From a virus: 64,000 nucleotides of DNA. This document shows positions 59,546-64,000 of this stretch, piece after piece (within the stretch, counting starts at the first letter, position 1; each line of letters begins with the position of its first letter). A program made the translations under genes and the position numbers. Location: IMG/VR virus record IMGVR_UViG_3300036893_000049, positions 1-64,000 of that record; one strand, 5' to 3'. The notes under the pieces were generated by a model. That model made no database searches. It had not been told where the DNA came from and was given only the letters and a program-made list of their open reading frames with translations.

Positions 59546-60907
59546 TCAGTCTTTCCAAGGATCATCGATTCCGTCTCCCGCCATCGCCACGGCGAATGGC
59601 CGTAGTGTGTGCAGCACTCGCGTCGAGGCCGCGTGGTGAGCCAGCACTTCCGGCAAACGGCGATAAGCCATCGGACTTTCGTCCAGACCGCCGCCCGCCA
59701 GTAACACGCCGCGATCTTGCAACCACGCCTCCATCTGGGTACGGGTGAACGTGCGAATCGCTTGTTTCCGCCCGAATAATCGCCCGGCACCGTGGACCGT
59801 CGAGTAGAGCGCATCCTTCGCTTCTTGGCAGTCAACACCTTCCAAGATCACAGCGTCATCGCCCATGGAGCCGCCAACAAAGCCCTTTTGGCCGGGGAAG
59901 GCTGGAGTTGCACCTTTTCGAACTACCCAGAGATCACGGCCGTTATGCGTTTCGCGCCACGCGTAATTATGATGGTTGTGAACCATTTCGGTCACTGAGC
60001 CGCCGATGATCTGGCGAACACGTTCAACCACCCATTCACGACCGGCGTAAGAGTACCTTCCGGCCAATTGCATCGCCGCGATATAACGGCGGCCGACTTC
60101 ACTATCTTCATCGACCACGGCGGGTGCAACGTTCATGCCGTCTTTCCCGCCAGCCGCTTTCAGATATCGTGTCGCGCTGGTGTGACCGAAACCGCGAGAA
60201 CCGAAGTGGACGCCGATCCAAACGAAATCGTCTTCATCTCGCATGAGATCGACATAATGGTTGCCTGATCCGACCGTTCCTAGCTGTGCGACGGCTTTTG
60301 AGCGGTATTCACCCATGTCGGATTCGCGCCATGCGTCGCTGTCGTCAAAGAGTTCATGTTCCACGCGCTCCTCATTGGTGCGACCGACGCCGAATGAAAT
60401 AACCTTGCGGACATCTTCAAGGATTGGATGGATACGATCCTGGATATCGGAAAATGGCGTGTCCAGGCGAACGGCCATGTTGCCGCATCCGATATCGAAA
60501 CCGACACCGGAAATGCTGATCTGCTTTTCATAAGCGATCACGCCCCCAACAGGTTGCGCGTAACCAAGATGACCGTCCGCGCAAATCACGCCCTTAACCG
60601 CGTTGCCGATAGCCATGCAGTTTCGCATCTGAGCGATGGTGTTGGGATCGTGATCGCCGAAGATCGTCAGAGGACTGTCGCGGAATCGTTCCTCCTGCGG
60701 GCGCAGATTGACGATGCTGGCCGCGAGGTCCGCTGCCTCCCTGGCGTTTTGCGCCGAACGGGCAGCATCGCGGAAATCGCACCATGCGGGCATACCCCGC
60801 TCACTGCCGGGTTTCGCGACACGCGAATCCGGATCGATGCCTTTAGCCTGGCACATTTCGCGTGCGGCGACTTCCAATGGATCGGCTCGACGTGTTGAAA
60901 CAGACAT
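59546..60907 (-). CDS. rtcB: RNA ligase RtcB
   Basis: ADGHLG..QPVG, GFDIGCG, GTVGSGNHYV, VHFGSRG, HNHHNY, RKGAT, STVHGAGR, DESPMAY motifs. Confidence 0.95.
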   Translation of the reverse strand: MSVSTRRADPLEVAAREMCQAKGIDPDSRVAKPGSERGMPAWCDFRDAARSAQNAREAADLAASIVNLRPQEERFRDSPLTIFGDHDPNTIAQMRNCMAIGNAVKGVICADGHLGYAQPVGGVIAYEKQISISGVGFDIGCGNMAVRLDTPFSDIQDRIHPILEDVRKVISFGVGRTNEERVEHELFDDSDAWRESDMGEYRSKAVAQLGTVGSGNHYVDLMRDEDDFVWIGVHFGSRGFGHTSATRYLKAAGGKDGMNVAPAVVDEDSEVGRRYIAAMQLAGRYSYAGREWVVERVRQIIGGSVTEMVHNHHNYAWRETHNGRDLWVVRKGATPAFPGQKGFVGGSMGDDAVILEGVDCQEAKDALYSTVHGAGRLFGRKQAIRTFTRTQMEAWLQDRGVLLAGGGLDESPMAYRRLPEVLAHHAASTRVLHTLRPFAVAMAGDGIDDPWKD

Positions 60908-60925
60908 AACTCTCTCCTTCTATAA

Positions 60926-61004
60926 GGCATCGCCGCACGGGACTCGAACCCGCCGCCTATCCGTTAGTGGCCACTGTGCAGTTCCGACGTTTGCACACGG
61001 CGAT
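60926..61004 (-). ncRNA. tRNA-like RNA with degenerate anticodon arm
   Basis: acceptor ATCGCCG(T)/(G)CGGCGAT, D arm GTGCA/TGCAC with GG loop, T arm GCGGG-TTCGAGT-CCCGT. Confidence 0.7.
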
Positions 61005-61010
61005 ATGGGA

Positions 61011-61991
61011 TCACAAAATCGCGGTTCGATAAGCATCCTTCACGATAGCGTCGATCACGCCGTGGTCCGGCGTCTCGGGCAGTGCGGATACCTCCTCCTC
61101 TGCTTCTACTCGTTCCAACAAATCCTCGATTTCCTCCGCGACGGCGGCATAGGGCAGTTCGCCTTTCTTGATCGCCAGAATATGCTTGGCGTTCAGCAGT
61201 GGAAAGGTGATATGGCCAGATCGCAACAGTTCCAGAGCCTCGCCGCCAACTCGCACCGCATGAGAAAGCGCCTTCCAATCGACGTTTTCGTTACGTTCGG
61301 CCTGCAACGCGCGGGCGCCATATTCGTCCAGTAGTCGAACATAGATCGCGCGCGTATCCTTCAACGATGTGAAGAACGGTGCCTTACGGTTACAGCATTC
61401 AAGATGCGGGATCGGATCGGGACGGCTTGGATGCGGGATAAATATGATCGCGGTATGATCGAGTTTATGTTCCGCGATGAACGTAGGCAGCGTGTCTGCC
61501 GCGATCTCCAACTTTGCCAGATGCCCGTATTCCATGATGGCCTGGTCAAACCAATTCACGATCTCGCGGGCGGCATGAACGCGCGAGCCTTTGATTCCAT
61601 ATTTGTTTGCCTGAGTTCGGCAATAGCCAATGAAGCTGGCGGCACGACGGCTCAACAACTGATGGCGACAATCCCAGATACGGCCCCAGATCGGATCGGG
61701 ATCGCATGTCATAGCCCATCGTGGCGCAAACAGCATGTCCAGAGCAACGGTCTGCCCTTCTGCCAGCAATGACAAATACCGATGGAGCGCATAAGCCTCC
61801 CGGTCGATATCGCCCGCGACGTTCTTTTCGCCAGTCTGCTTGGGTCGTTTGTCTGTTACCGTCGCTTTAACGCGTTGCAATAGGATCGCGTCCGCGTCTG
61901 GCACAAACACGGTTTTGTAATCCACGTCCGACGCTGGCGTGGACGTGCCGTAGAGGTGCGAGCCAAACTTGATCTCGACAAGGGTTTTCAC
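61011..61991 (-). CDS. Pol-beta family nucleotidyltransferase, RlaP/NrdC.11-like
   Basis: FGSHLYGTSTPASDVDYK, DWKALSHAVR, ILAIKKGEL, SALPETPD. Confidence 0.85.
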   Translation of the reverse strand: MKTLVEIKFGSHLYGTSTPASDVDYKTVFVPDADAILLQRVKATVTDKRPKQTGEKNVAGDIDREAYALHRYLSLLAEGQTVALDMLFAPRWAMTCDPDPIWGRIWDCRHQLLSRRAASFIGYCRTQANKYGIKGSRVHAAREIVNWFDQAIMEYGHLAKLEIAADTLPTFIAEHKLDHTAIIFIPHPSRPDPIPHLECCNRKAPFFTSLKDTRAIYVRLLDEYGARALQAERNENVDWKALSHAVRVGGEALELLRSGHITFPLLNAKHILAIKKGELPYAAVAEEIEDLLERVEAEEEVSALPETPDHGVIDAIVKDAYRTAIL

Positions 61992-62749: not shown

Positions 62750-63241
62750 TCATACCGCCCCCATCTTTCTCAAAAAATCCCGGGCGACCTCCGCGACCGG
62801 CAGCGGGTGAGTGGCCCCCTCCGCTACATCCGGCTTGCTCCGGTCCTTAGCCGTATGCTCGATCAGACCAAGTATCGATTGTTCCCGCAACGCTTCACGC
62901 AGTGCAGGTGGCGAAATGTCATTGGCCTTGGCGAGACCATTAGATATGGTACGAAATCCCCGCCGCGCCTGACTACGAATACGGGCACGAGCCGTTTGAC
63001 CGATTTTGTGCAGATCGTCAGGAACGACGCGTTTATATCCAACACGGCGCACGGAAGCGAATACCGCGCCATTTTCTCGTTCAACGACAAAAATCGCGCG
63101 ATAAAGAAGATACCGGCATACGTTAATGTTCCGGCCGATTGCCTTACTGAAATCGTCGAATGTCAACGTTTCGCCAAAAGGACAAGCGGCGAGAAGGTCC
63201 GCGAGGATGCGGGTGTCCTGGTGTAACTCCATGACGATCAT
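62750..63241 (-). CDS. putative winged-helix protein downstream of the RAMP/array
   Basis: GETLTFDDFSKAIG...FASVRRVGYKRV; AGGAG Shine-Dalgarno abuts the array. Confidence 0.6.
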   Translation of the reverse strand: MIVMELHQDTRILADLLAACPFGETLTFDDFSKAIGRNINVCRYLLYRAIFVVERENGAVFASVRRVGYKRVVPDDLHKIGQTARARIRSQARRGFRTISNGLAKANDISPPALREALREQSILGLIEHTAKDRSKPDVAEGATHPLPVAEVARDFLRKMGAV

Positions 63242-63253
63242 GGGAAGGCTCCT

Positions 63254-63402
63254 GTATTGTGTCGTGCTGTGCGGTGGTGTGGCGTGACGTGTCGTGCGGT
63301 GCCGTGGTGTGGAGTGGTGTGCTGTGGTGTGATGATTTTGGCAGTCCCAACAGAAGCGAGAACGATTCCGTTGGGATTGCCGATGATGTGCCGTGGCGTG
63401 GT
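63254..63402 (-). repeat. pentamer array (NN-CAC)n split by a hairpin; putative guide RNA
   Basis: 16 contiguous units 63254-63333, hairpin 63340-63381, 3 more units 63388-63402. Confidence 0.9.
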
Positions 63403-63403
63403 A

Positions 63404-63997
63404 TCATGCAACCATCTGGCGATTATCCTGCCAGACCAGTTTATCCAGAACGAAGCGGCCATTGTGACCGCCATTTTGTGGCCGGAACTGGCCGATTCCA
63501 ATAAAGAGGCCAGCAAGTTCCACCATGTCCCGGAAAACGGGCTCGACGATGATCGGGTCCAGGATGATGATTTCGAATGTCGATGACCATTCCCGAACCA
63601 CGGGAAAGCGGCGCACGACTCGTTTGCCTGAACCCCGGACACCATCGGCGTTGGCTGAGATCGTAACCATCATCGCCTCTGAGGGATCGATATTCAGGAT
63701 TGGTGCGGCGGGGATCATCACGCCGCTGGTGAACTTGGCGGACCATGTGGCCTTCCCCTGGCCCGGGATTTGGATTTTTGAATATTTCGCCGCCGCGATC
63801 AGGCATTGGTGAAAACCGTGCGGTGGAATAATGATGGTTTTTTTGCCGTCGTGTTCCTCGATGGACAATTTGCTACGCCATGTCCTGGCGTCATAGGCAT
63901 CTGGCGACTCGCCTTCGAGCCGCGGGTCATTGTGTTGCCGGGACTGACTGTACGGCGCGGTGCCACGGAGGGTCAGTTGAGCGATGGTGTATTGCAT
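63404..63997 (-). CDS. stand-alone Cas7/RAMP-like protein
   Basis: N-terminal strand LTLRGTAPY, IIIPPHGFHQCL..AA, RFP...WSSTFEI, C-terminal G-loop AGLFIGIGQFRPQNGGHNGRF. Confidence 0.75.
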   Translation of the reverse strand: MQYTIAQLTLRGTAPYSQSRQHNDPRLEGESPDAYDARTWRSKLSIEEHDGKKTIIIPPHGFHQCLIAAAKYSKIQIPGQGKATWSAKFTSGVMIPAAPILNIDPSEAMMVTISANADGVRGSGKRVVRRFPVVREWSSTFEIIILDPIIVEPVFRDMVELAGLFIGIGQFRPQNGGHNGRFVLDKLVWQDNRQMVA

Positions 63998-64000
63998 GGA

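What the first reader, a model, noticed from the sequence alone, without database searches (positions are those of the whole stretch)
63241..63997. Stand-alone Cas7/RAMP-like gene with an (NN-CAC)n pentamer array: candidate CRISPR-independent RNA-guided system
Seen: a 197-aa ORF with RAMP/Cas7-type motifs, including the glycine-rich loop GIGQFRPQNGGHNGRF. Immediately after its stop, the sense strand reads ACCAC GCCAC GGCAC, then a 12-bp hairpin (63340-63381), then 16 phased pentamers (63254-63333). CAC is invariant (TAC in the last unit) and only the dinucleotide varies: AT AC AG AC TC AC GG CG GA GT GC AC CG AG GA AA. No cas genes or CRISPR repeats occur in the window. A fixed 3-mer with a diverse 2-mer is not what slippage produces. 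Known: Cas7 polymerises on RNA with a fixed nucleotide periodicity. Inference: each subunit binds one CAC and the NN pairs form a non-contiguous guide against a gapped target, such as a rival phage or host gene. From memory this resembles recently reported viral RAMP systems with GGY/NN repeat RNAs (VIPR; not verified here), but the constant triplet here is CAC, so it may be an undescribed subtype.
Basis: partly seen in the sequence, partly recalled or inferred. Interest (0 to 1): 0.95.

Follow-up and report, generated by a model that had tools for sequence, protein, structure and literature searches.

The report
Phage VIPR system with CAC-NN guides
This 85-kb peat phage carries a genuine VIPR system, the CRISPR-like RNA-guided DNA-silencing system of phages first described in 2026; it belongs to a branch whose guide RNAs use C-A-C instead of G-G-pyrimidine as the fixed letters of each 5-base unit, a variant already noted in the literature, so it is real and tidy but not a new kind of system.

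Summary
It is also incomplete: a second, 19-unit NN-CAC array lies just past the window end, directly upstream of the gene.

- **Protein.** The 197-aa protein is a Vipr homolog. A family profile hits the solved SUSP1 Vipr at E=1.4e-11. The AF2 model (pLDDT 96) matches Csm3, Cmr4 and type VII Cas7 (Z up to 12.8).
- **Family.** In 101 related loci, period-5 arrays flank the gene on its sense strand, mostly NN-CGC and a minority NN-CAC.
- **NN variation.** All nine listed differences in a natural variant contig fall on NN positions.
- **Scaffold and G-loop.** Gln at position 170 goes with CAC in 7 of 7 loci. Arg goes with CGC.
- **Operon layout.** Arrays abut the ribosome-binding sites of vipr and of a conserved 163-aa gene with a winged-helix-like N-terminus. 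They therefore lie inside the operon transcript.
- **Targets.** None was found.

VIPR was published in 2026 (bioRxiv 10.64898/2026.04.26.720920). CAC/NN repeats next to Vipr-like folds were named in 10.64898/2026.10.21.760802. Earlier agents of this scan reported CGC-, CNC- or YRC-type VIPR loci in at least five other genomes.

Verdict: a new member of a known kind.

The parts
63998..64000 (-). Last 3 nt of the window, which are the 3' end of the vipr leader. The rest of the leader lies beyond the window end, where the genome's numbering continues the window's:
- SD AAGGA at 64005-64009;
- array 1, 19 perfect NN-CAC units at 64015-64109 (21 with two degenerate 5' units), containing an exact 20-nt tandem duplication (64020-64039 = 64040-64059);
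- hairpin GGCC-GCGA-GGCC at 64117-64128;
- promoter-like TTGACA-16 nt-TGTAAT at 64138-64165, whose -35 lies in the palindrome TTGACTGTCAA.
   Evidence: The promoter was read by eye; the consensus scan did not call it. Analogous TTGAC-type -35 hexamers sit just upstream of the first array in L009 (TTGACA) and L026 (TTGACG). A GCGA-looped hairpin also separates arrays in L011.
63404..63997 (-). vipr: a 197-aa minimal RAMP (single RRM core, thumb hairpin about residues 126-145, G-loop 167-182).
   Evidence: Profile hit to PDB 36pp_D 'SUSP1 Vipr protein', E=1.4e-11, over residues 13-183. AF2 pLDDT 96. Foldseek top hits are type VII Cas7, Csm3 and Cmr4. VIA Z 12.8 to Csm3 6ae2_B. 1037 and 1081 homologs. 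phrog_4652.
63388..63402 (-). Three NN-CAC units right after the stop codon (ACCAC GCCAC GGCAC). This is the start of an array that is full-length in natural variants.
   Evidence: Contigs of three RNA-library runs continue this array in phase in place of the hairpin (loose end before L001 1694). In 52 of 73 related loci an array starts 40 nt or less after the vipr stop.
63340..63381 (-). 12-pair hairpin between the 3-unit remnant and array 2. It is a boundary element (5' handle, 3' tail or processing site; which one is undetermined).
   Evidence: -26.6 kcal/mol sense, -27.5 antisense. Hairpin modules separate arrays in multi-array relatives.
63254..63333 (-). Array 2: 16 NN-CAC units (the last is AATAC), running into the SD (AGGAG 63249-63253) of the next gene.
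   Evidence: A variant contig differs at 9 listed places, all of them NN positions.
62750..63241 (-). Conserved accessory gene (vap-like), 163 aa: an N-terminal winged-helix-like domain plus a long helical hairpin.
   Evidence: A homolog is present in 75 of 101 vipr loci, always on the same strand and downstream in 73 of 75. AF2 pLDDT 92. Only weak fold matches to winged-helix DNA-binding domains. No Pfam hit.

Best explanation
This is a VIPR (Viral Interference Programmable Repeat) operon of a peat phage. Its order is: promoter, small GNRA hairpin, array 1, vipr, short array remnant plus hairpin, array 2, winged-helix-like accessory gene.

The arrays are transcribed on the vipr (CAC) strand as part of the operon RNA and give vrRNAs built of C-A-C-N-N units. 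By homology with the solved SUSP1 complex, one Vipr protomer binds each 5-nt unit. It sequesters the constant triplet and presents the two variable bases, and the filament reads a gapped double-stranded DNA target (NN x NN x ...), probably in a competing phage or mobile element, and silences it.

The scaffold is C1-R2-C3 instead of G1-G2-Y3. Position 2 appears to be read by G-loop residue 170: Arg with G (U tolerated), Gln with A. This phage belongs to the Gln/CAC branch.

Shown here:
- homology and fold of the protein;
- the arrays, their phase, and the conservation of the triplet against variation of NN;
- the operon layout and the accessory gene.

Inferred:
- the strand of the mature RNA;
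- binding of the RNA by Vipr;
- the 1-nt skip rule;
- DNA silencing and the identity of the targets.
For: - **Protein.**: the family profile matches the SUSP1 Vipr chain (E=1.4e-11); a confident model with the Cas7/Csm3 fold.
- **Arrays in relatives.**: about 95 of 101 related loci (IMG/VR and mostly alphaproteobacterial genomes) have period-5 arrays flanking vipr, always NN-C[G/A]C on the vipr sense strand. Among the IMG/VR loci, 168 arrays were called NN-CGC and 17 NN-CAC.
- **Strand asymmetry and G-loop.**: thousands of units on the sense strand and almost none on the antisense strand. Gln170 goes with CAC in 7 of 7 loci; Arg goes with CGC in 65 of 69. Arg loci tolerate T second (G > T > A >> C), which fits an H-bond donor reading a keto group on the sense strand.
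- **NN variation.**: all 9 listed differences of a variant contig fall on NN positions (chance 0.4^9 = 2.6e-4). RNA-library contigs of three peat studies include both arrays.
- **Operon layout.**: arrays end a median of 17 nt before the vipr ATG and 23 nt before the accessory gene's ATG. They must therefore lie in the mRNA leaders.
- **Precedent.**: in SUSP1 the YNNGG arrays are on the vipr strand too.
- **Mechanism.**: the published mechanism.
- **Self-targeting.**: no self-target, as reported for published VIPRs.
Against: - No natural target was found under any skip rule in the phage itself, in about 100 related loci, in IMG/VR or in JGI metagenome contigs.
- The strand of the mature RNA is not shown. 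The laid runs are contigs. This phage's own 12-pair hairpin has an A.C mismatch on the sense strand and a G.U pair on the antisense strand. Inter-array spacers fold more stably as antisense RNA in 80 of 104 cases, although that test is confounded by the G-richness of the antisense strand. A composition-neutral wobble count was indecisive (75 against 52).
- No 3' structured tail follows either array here, unlike SUSP1 vrRNAs.
- The Gln/Arg association may rest on as few as one evolutionary switch, because the tree backbone is unresolved.
Confidence: 0.8

Rival explanations
1. Same VIPR system, but the functional vrRNAs come from the opposite strand. They would be G-U-G-N-N repeats, each followed by a 3' hairpin tail and driven by promoters inside the 5' ends of vipr and the accessory gene.
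For: On the + strand each array of this phage is followed by a hairpin, matching the published 'repeats then 3' tail' order. The 63340-63381 hairpin is fully paired only on the + strand, through a G.U pair. Antisense spacers are more stable in 80 of 104 cases. G-rich scaffolds resemble GGY.
Against: - No promoter was found on that strand.
- Arrays fill the operon's intergenic gaps and abut the SDs in most loci.
- In multi-array loci, hairpins simply lie between arrays, so the 5'-or-3' argument is symmetric.
- SUSP1 vrRNAs are on the vipr sense strand.
- G-Y-G aligns worse with G-G-Y than C-R-C does, since C-R-C keeps a purine at position 2 and a pyrimidine at position 3.
- Arg with C and Gln with U is chemically less coherent than Arg with G/U and Gln with A.
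- The MFE bias is expected from G-richness alone, and the neutral wobble count slightly favours the sense strand.
Confidence: 0.12
2. The arrays act mainly in cis as regulatory leaders. Vipr polymerises on the 5' UTRs of its own mRNA and of the accessory gene's mRNA and occludes their SDs (autoregulation), with little or no trans targeting of DNA.
For: Arrays end a median of 17 and 23 nt before the two start codons, and in some loci the last units themselves contain the SD. No target was found.
Against: NN hypervariability among close variants and among paralogous arrays (L061) has no obvious reason in a pure leader. Loci with up to 15 arrays exceed what two leaders need. The homologous SUSP1 system targets DNA in trans. 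This rival may coexist with guide function.
Confidence: 0.05
3. The pentamers are DNA-level elements: slippage microsatellites, or iterated binding sites for the winged-helix-like protein or a replication protein. In that case they have nothing to do with the RAMP.
For: Period 5 is half a helical turn. A DNA-binding-like protein is encoded next door.
Against: Slippage does not hold three positions fixed while two vary. The arrays are strictly co-oriented with vipr in about 100 loci and track a G-loop residue of Vipr. They also occur in loci that lack the 163-aa gene (26 of 101). The protein is a homolog of a solved RNA-binding Vipr.
Confidence: 0.03

Closest known systems
Type II VIPR of Escherichia phage SUSP1 (and the Pseudomonas fulva prophage); bioRxiv 10.64898/2026.04.26.720920 and 10.64898/2026.04.26.720927
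   Same: - A small stand-alone RAMP (about 200 aa) with RRM core, thumb and G-loop, detectable by sequence profile.
- Phage-borne, in a two-gene operon with a DNA-binding-like accessory gene.
- Arrays of 5-nt units with 3 fixed and 2 hypervariable bases, upstream and downstream of vipr and on its strand.
- Array length of 12-19 units.
- No self-targets.
   Different: - The scaffold is C-A-C (C-G-C in most relatives), not G-G-Y.
- G-loop residue Asp177, which contacts G1 in SUSP1, is Gln or Arg here.
- The arrays abut the SDs and have no pseudoknotted 3' tail. Structured elements sit on the 5' side or between arrays.
- The accessory protein shows no detectable similarity to anything solved. Its relation to vap1-6 could not be tested.
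- The 1-nt skip rule is untested and no targets were found.
Non-canonical VIPR repeat clusters (GAC/NN, CAC/NN, WGT/NN, TGH/NN) found by entropy periodicity; bioRxiv 10.64898/2026.10.21.760802
   Same: A fixed trinucleotide other than GGY, explicitly including CAC/NN, repeated about 10 times or more next to a Vipr-like fold.
   Different: That report is a computational listing. I could not check whether its CAC cluster is this protein family, because the figures and tables are not held. It does not mention the G-loop Arg/Gln covariation or the leader position of the arrays.
'YNNNG' alternative vrRNA consensus of the original VIPR classification (seven types)
   Same: Read in the paper's register (Y3 N4 N5 G1 G2), the majority scaffold of this family is C-N-N-C-G, which fits YNNNG.
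   Different: This phage's own units read C-N-N-C-A, so the last position is A, not G. Which of types I-VII the family belongs to could not be determined.
Class 1 CRISPR backbone subunits (Cas7 family: Csm3, Cmr4, type VII Cas7)
   Same: The fold (Z 10-12.8; Foldseek E down to 9e-8). By analogy, polymerisation on RNA with thumb-induced periodic base flipping.
   Different: No CRISPR array and no other cas genes nearby. Period 5 with a 2-nt readout instead of period 6 with a 5-nt readout. The guide is written in tandem pentamers, not in spacers.

Membership tests
VIPR system | Vipr protein: a minimal RAMP (RRM core, G-loop, thumb) homologous to described Viprs | tested here: met
   Profile hit to the PDB chain 'SUSP1 Vipr protein', E=1.4e-11, covering residues 13-183. 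AF2 pLDDT 96 with the Cas7/Csm3 fold, Z 12.8.
VIPR system | Tandem 5-nt repeat arrays beside vipr with three conserved and two hypervariable positions | tested here: met
   Two arrays of 16 and 19-21 units. The family-wide column frequencies are about 0.8-1.0 for the triplet and 0.3-0.5 for NN. 9 of 9 variant differences fall at NN.
VIPR system | Canonical GGY scaffold | tested here: not met
   The scaffold is CAC (36 of 40 units). The literature accepts related consensus repeats (YNNNG and others) and lists CAC/NN as non-canonical VIPR. This therefore defines the canonical types, not the family as a whole.
VIPR system | Minimal locus without CRISPR array or cas operon; mostly viral or proviral | tested here: met
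   Complete 85-kb IMG/VR virus record with terminal repeats. No CRISPR-like repeats in the window. The neighbours are RtcB, an RlaP nucleotidyltransferase and small ORFs. Not every ORF was screened for cas families.
VIPR system | Accessory vap gene next to vipr | tested here: inconclusive
   A conserved 163-aa gene lies downstream in 75 of 101 loci, with a winged-helix-like N-terminus. Identity with vap1-6 could not be checked because no sequences are held.
VIPR system | vrRNA expressed as about 100-nt RNAs and bound by Vipr | not testable with these tools
   Only contigs of three metatranscriptome runs, which include both arrays but show neither strand nor ends.
VIPR system | Conserved structured 3' tail after the repeat tract | tested here: inconclusive
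   Both arrays here are followed directly by an SD. The hairpins lie 5' of the arrays on the sense strand. In multi-array relatives the hairpin modules lie between arrays, so they could belong to either side.
VIPR system | Gapped (1-nt skip) recognition of dsDNA targets in competing elements | tested here: inconclusive
   No match above shuffled or chance level for skips 0-3 locally. Nothing for the 1-nt skip in IMG/VR and metagenome contigs. The collection scans were exact-match only, so targets with scattered mismatches would be missed.
CRISPR-Cas class 1 effector (Cas7) | Cas7 fold together with a CRISPR array and partner cas genes | tested here: not met
   The fold is met. No CRISPR array was found and no cas neighbours.

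The most novel reading that the evidence does not exclude
The scaffold triplet of VIPR guide RNAs is set by a simple, swappable protein-RNA code. A single G-loop residue (Arg170 or Gln170 here, Asp177 in SUSP1) would choose the base at scaffold position 2 (G/U or A). CAC-type and CGC-type systems would then be mutually orthogonal guide/effector pairs. In addition, in this branch the guides double as 5' leaders that let Vipr throttle its own translation and that of its partner. Neither point is stated in the papers I could read.
Probability: 0.3. Interest if true: 0.5.

Novelty: new member of a known kind. Interest (0 to 1): 0.3.

Why it matters
The locus adds a well-resolved example of the C-R-C scaffold branch of VIPR: a complete phage genome, two arrays, an accessory gene and natural variants. 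It comes from peat, and the branch's cellular relatives are mostly Alphaproteobacteria.

Its practical value is modest but real. The Arg/Gln to G/A covariation points to one residue that may set scaffold specificity. That could be used to build orthogonal VIPR effector/guide pairs, and it can be tested with one point mutation.

The position of the arrays against the ribosome-binding sites suggests autoregulation, which the characterised type II systems would not show.

It does not open a new class, and the target biology remains unknown.

Tried and rejected
**1. Strand by folding energy.** Antisense spacers are more stable (80 of 104). I rejected this as evidence because the antisense strand is G-rich. 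A purine/pyrimidine-neutral wobble count gave 75 G.U on sense against 52 on antisense, with loci split 11 to 9. That is inconclusive.

**2. Promoter/terminator scan.** It found no promoter. Its one 'terminator' lies inside array 2 and is an artefact of the repeat.

**3. Rfam.** No ribozyme or known RNA family in this locus or in L003. The inter-array hairpins are not hammerheads by this test.

**4. Targets.**
- Own genome and 80-100 related loci, skips 0-3: nothing above shuffled-order controls.
- IMG/VR exact scans of array 2, units 1-8, 9-16 and 5-12: 24, 4 and 10 hits, all extending to 23 of 32 or fewer, which is chance level.
- JGI metagenome scan of array 2, units 3-13: 0 hits.
- Array 1, units 4-14, in metagenomes: 6 hits. 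Array 1, units 7-16, in IMG/VR: 1 hit. Of the four metagenome loci inspected, three lie in apparently unrelated ORFs that share low-complexity '(D/E)AVA(D/E)A(D/E)AA' peptides: one looks like a 2-hydroxyacid dehydrogenase, one like a nucleotidyltransferase (both named by eye from the sequence, no domain search run), and one is an unassigned ORF. L137 shows no such peptide. The IMG/VR hit (L149) reads the same kind of peptide. I rejected them as chance matches to a GCN-rich pattern.

**5. Earlier agent's lead.** Guides were said to spell motifs of rival vipr or capsid genes. This was not seen for these two arrays.

**6. DNA and protein searches against cultured phages (INPHARED).** No match.

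**7. Tree of Gln/Arg switches.** The careful tree did not finish. The quick tree places Gln in three spots, but its backbone is unresolved, so one to three switches are possible.

**8. The look-up of encoding contigs was closed.** The 88%-identical homolog's contig could not be fetched.

**9. Supplementary tables of the VIPR paper are not held.** Whether this family is among its 2,664 Viprs, and which type it would be, could not be checked.

**10. Accessory protein.** No Pfam or PDB sequence hit. The fold hits are generic (Z < 8).

**11. RNA-library cover of neighbouring genes is patchy.** Absence of cover there is not evidence of silence.
Full report
**Observation**

The minus strand of 63241-63997 holds a 197-aa ORF (63404-63997) with the glycine-rich motif GIGQFRPQNGGHNGRF. 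Four elements follow the stop, in this order:
- three units, ACCAC GCCAC GGCAC (63402-63388);
- a 12-pair hairpin (63381-63340);
- the Shine-Dalgarno AGGAG and the ATG of a 163-aa ORF (62750-63241).

The window is bases 1-64000 of a complete 85,259-bp IMG/VR virus record with terminal repeats.

It has 19 perfect NN-CAC units at 64015-64109 on the same strand. It ends 17 nt before the ORF's ATG. Upstream of it lie a GGCC-GCGA-GGCC hairpin and a TTGACA-16-TGTAAT promoter-like element.

These two arrays are the only period-5 signals in the genome. The real maximum score is 0.825, against at most 0.70 in 50 Markov-2 simulated genomes.

**What the protein is**

Pfam finds nothing. PHROGs gives only an unnamed family, phrog_4652.

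The family is large:
- 1037 clusters at 90% identity;
- 1081 representatives at 50% identity with E≤1e-3.

A profile of 66 diverse members hits one solved protein, 'SUSP1 Vipr protein' (36pp_D). The E-value is 1.4e-11, over profile positions 13-183 against chain residues 30-191 of 202.

The AlphaFold model is confident (pLDDT 96, pTM 0.89). It matches CRISPR backbone RAMPs and nothing else at the top:
- Foldseek: type VII Cas7, Csm3 and Cmr4, down to E=9e-8, with 176 hits at E≤1e-3;
- VIA-align: Z 12.8 to Csm3 6ae2_B and Cmr4 6s6b_I.

So the RAMP call is right, and the protein is specifically a Vipr homolog.

**What is known**

VIPR is real and was published in 2026.

*Original paper, bioRxiv 10.64898/2026.04.26.720920*:
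- phage-borne Vipr RAMPs with vrRNAs of 9-16 YNNGG units and a structured 3' tail;
- recognition of dsDNA through the NN bases with one skipped target base per unit;
- seven types with accessory vap genes;
- 'related consensus' repeats: NNNGG, YNNNG and NNNNG.

*Cryo-EM companion, 10.64898/2026.04.26.720927*:
- one protomer binds per unit;
- G1 is read by H17 and D177;
- G2 sits between R138 and W178;
- Y3 lies in a purine-excluding pocket.

*Later preprint, 10.64898/2026.10.21.760802*:
- it reports 21 clusters of non-canonical period-5 arrays next to Vipr-like folds;
- it names 'GAC/NN or CAC/NN'.

The CAC scaffold is therefore already noted in the literature.

Earlier agents of this scan also reported CGC-, CNC- or YRC-type VIPR loci in at least five other genomes. 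I treated those notes as leads only.

**Comparative anatomy**

I fetched 80 IMG/VR loci and 21 genome loci. The genome loci are mostly Alphaproteobacteria: Roseomonas, Hyphomicrobiales, Rhizobium, Paracoccus, Devosia and Ancylobacter.

About 95 of the 101 loci have period-5 arrays flanking vipr. With vipr oriented forward, the consensus is NN-CGC in 168 arrays and NN-CAC in 17. The constant columns are 0.8-1.0 conserved and the NN columns 0.3-0.5. Chains of NN-CxC units occur by the thousand on the sense strand and hardly at all on the other.

The typical layout is as follows:
- arrays per locus: median 3, maximum 15;
- units per array: median 15;
- in 62 of 71 loci the upstream array ends within 40 nt of the vipr ATG (median 17 nt);
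- in 52 of 73 loci an array starts within 40 nt of the vipr stop;
- in 46 of 63 loci an array ends within 40 nt of the next gene's ATG.

In several loci the last units themselves contain the SD. In multi-array loci such as L011, 14 arrays are separated by a two-hairpin module whose first hairpin has the same GCGA loop as the one here.

The 163-aa ORF has a homolog in 75 of 101 loci. It is always co-oriented with vipr, and it lies downstream in 73 of the 75. Its model (pLDDT 92) has an N-terminal winged-helix-like domain and a helical hairpin. The fold matches are only weak and generic. I regard it as this branch's accessory (vap-like) gene. I could not compare it with vap1-6.

**NN varies, the triplet does not**

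There are three lines of evidence.

- The column statistics above.
- Paralogous arrays in L061 differ only at NN.
- Peat metagenome and metatranscriptome runs hold this phage or close variants. Laying four of them on the locus showed one RNA-library contig covering array 2 with nine listed differences, at L001 1593, 1598, 1599, 1603, 1609, 1614, 1619, 1623 and 1629. All nine fall on NN positions of the pentamer frame. The chance expectation is 0.4^9 = 2.6e-4.

In three RNA-library runs from three studies, contigs share the vipr 3' end exactly. They then continue with a different in-phase array where this phage has its hairpin. The 'three extra pentamers' are therefore the stump of an array that is full-length in relatives.

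These runs are stored as contigs. They show neither strand nor ends. DNA carry-over cannot be excluded, and the runs were selected for holding this stretch. I count them only as a weak hint of expression.

**Which strand**

*For the sense (CAC) strand:*
- The arrays occupy the intergenic gaps of a co-oriented operon and abut the SDs. Any vipr or accessory-gene mRNA must therefore carry them.
- Promoter-like elements with a TTGAC-type -35 hexamer sit just upstream of the first array here, in L009 and in L026.
- In the founding system SUSP1 (KT454805.2), the YNNGG arrays lie on the vipr strand.
- C1-R2-C3 keeps the purine at position 2 and the pyrimidine at position 3 of G1-G2-Y3. The majority form reads C-N-N-C-G in the paper's register, which is YNNNG.
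- The G-loop residue aligned with SUSP1 D177 covaries with scaffold position 2. Gln occurs in exactly the seven CAC loci, with A in 87-100% of units. Arg occurs in the CGC loci (65 of 69), where T is usually the second-commonest base and C the rarest. An Arg donor reading the keto groups of G or U, and Gln reading A, is coherent on the sense strand. On the antisense strand it is not: there Arg would have to read the amino bases C and A.

*Against the sense strand:*
- This phage's 12-pair hairpin has an A.C mismatch on the sense strand.
- Antisense spacers fold more stably, but that is expected from G-richness.
- A composition-neutral wobble count was indecisive.
- The Gln label sits in three places on a quick tree with an unresolved backbone, so the covariation may reflect one to three switches.

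I put the sense strand at about 85%.

**Mechanism**

By homology, one Vipr protomer holds each C-A-C and presents the two following bases. The filament then reads a gapped DNA target and blocks transcription of a competing element.

The following steps are inferred, not shown:
- RNA binding by Vipr;
- the skip rule;
- silencing;
- the target class.

A branch-specific inference follows from the layout. Because the arrays run into the SDs, Vipr assembly on unprocessed leaders could repress translation of vipr and of the accessory gene.

**Targets**

None was found. Details are under Tried and rejected. The collection scans accept only exact patterns, so targets with scattered mismatches would be missed. 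There is no self-target, in line with published VIPRs.

**Verdict**

This is a genuine VIPR operon of the C-R-C scaffold branch, Gln/CAC sub-branch, in a complete peat phage. The novelty claim is not, because CAC/NN beside Vipr-like proteins is already in the literature.

The new details are the Arg/Gln to G(U)/A covariation and the leader position of the arrays. These are testable and modestly interesting.

Noticed in passing
window 59546-61991 (-): RNA-repair pair just downstream of the VIPR operon. It consists of an RtcB ligase (453 aa, PF01139, E=1e-63) with an N-terminal extension and an RlaP-type nucleotidyltransferase (326 aa, PF10127; phrog_388). An earlier first-reader note reports a tRNA-like RNA between them; I did not check that.
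   Followed up: partly
G000 64020-64059 (beyond window end): Array 1 contains an exact 20-nt tandem duplication (GCCAC TCCAC GACAC ATCAC twice). A guide segment was therefore duplicated in phase. This shows how arrays can grow by multiples of 5 nt.
   Followed up: partly
G000 64155-64412 (+), beyond window end: A divergent 73-aa gene (MSREILLPEVITVRLPAG...) starts 82 nt from array 1. By eye it resembles a ribbon-helix-helix protein; no domain search was run on it. It shares the palindromic -35 region TTGACTGTCAA with the vipr promoter. L003 has a small gene upstream of vipr that by eye looks like the same kind of protein, on the same strand, but tblastn finds no homolog of this one in the 101 loci.
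   Followed up: partly
G000 about 64610-65500 (+), L001 2911-3801: A small ORF follows that by eye looks like an HNH endonuclease. After it comes the start of an ORF that by eye resembles TnpB (…KGQHDKLRAALSHTRDLYNAALAERIDCYRKTGKG…). No domain search was run on either. An earlier first-reader note describes the second as an IS insertion. A metatranscriptome contig (X17) joins L001 2878 to 3173, skipping 294 nt (13 other letters lie between the two sides), so a variant with a different form of this stretch exists.
   Followed up: no
L003 3600-5160; L011 1979-4559: Some relatives carry 8-14 arrays in tandem, separated by conserved double-hairpin modules. This resembles a CRISPR array with the roles of repeat and spacer kept but the 'spacer' written in pentamers. 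Rfam finds no ribozyme in L003's modules.
   Followed up: partly
L051, L056/L057, L115, L122: A few Arg-type relatives use mostly C-T-C units (for example L051 with T in 33 of 36 units, and L115 with T in 68 of 107). This is a third scaffold flavour within the family.
   Followed up: no
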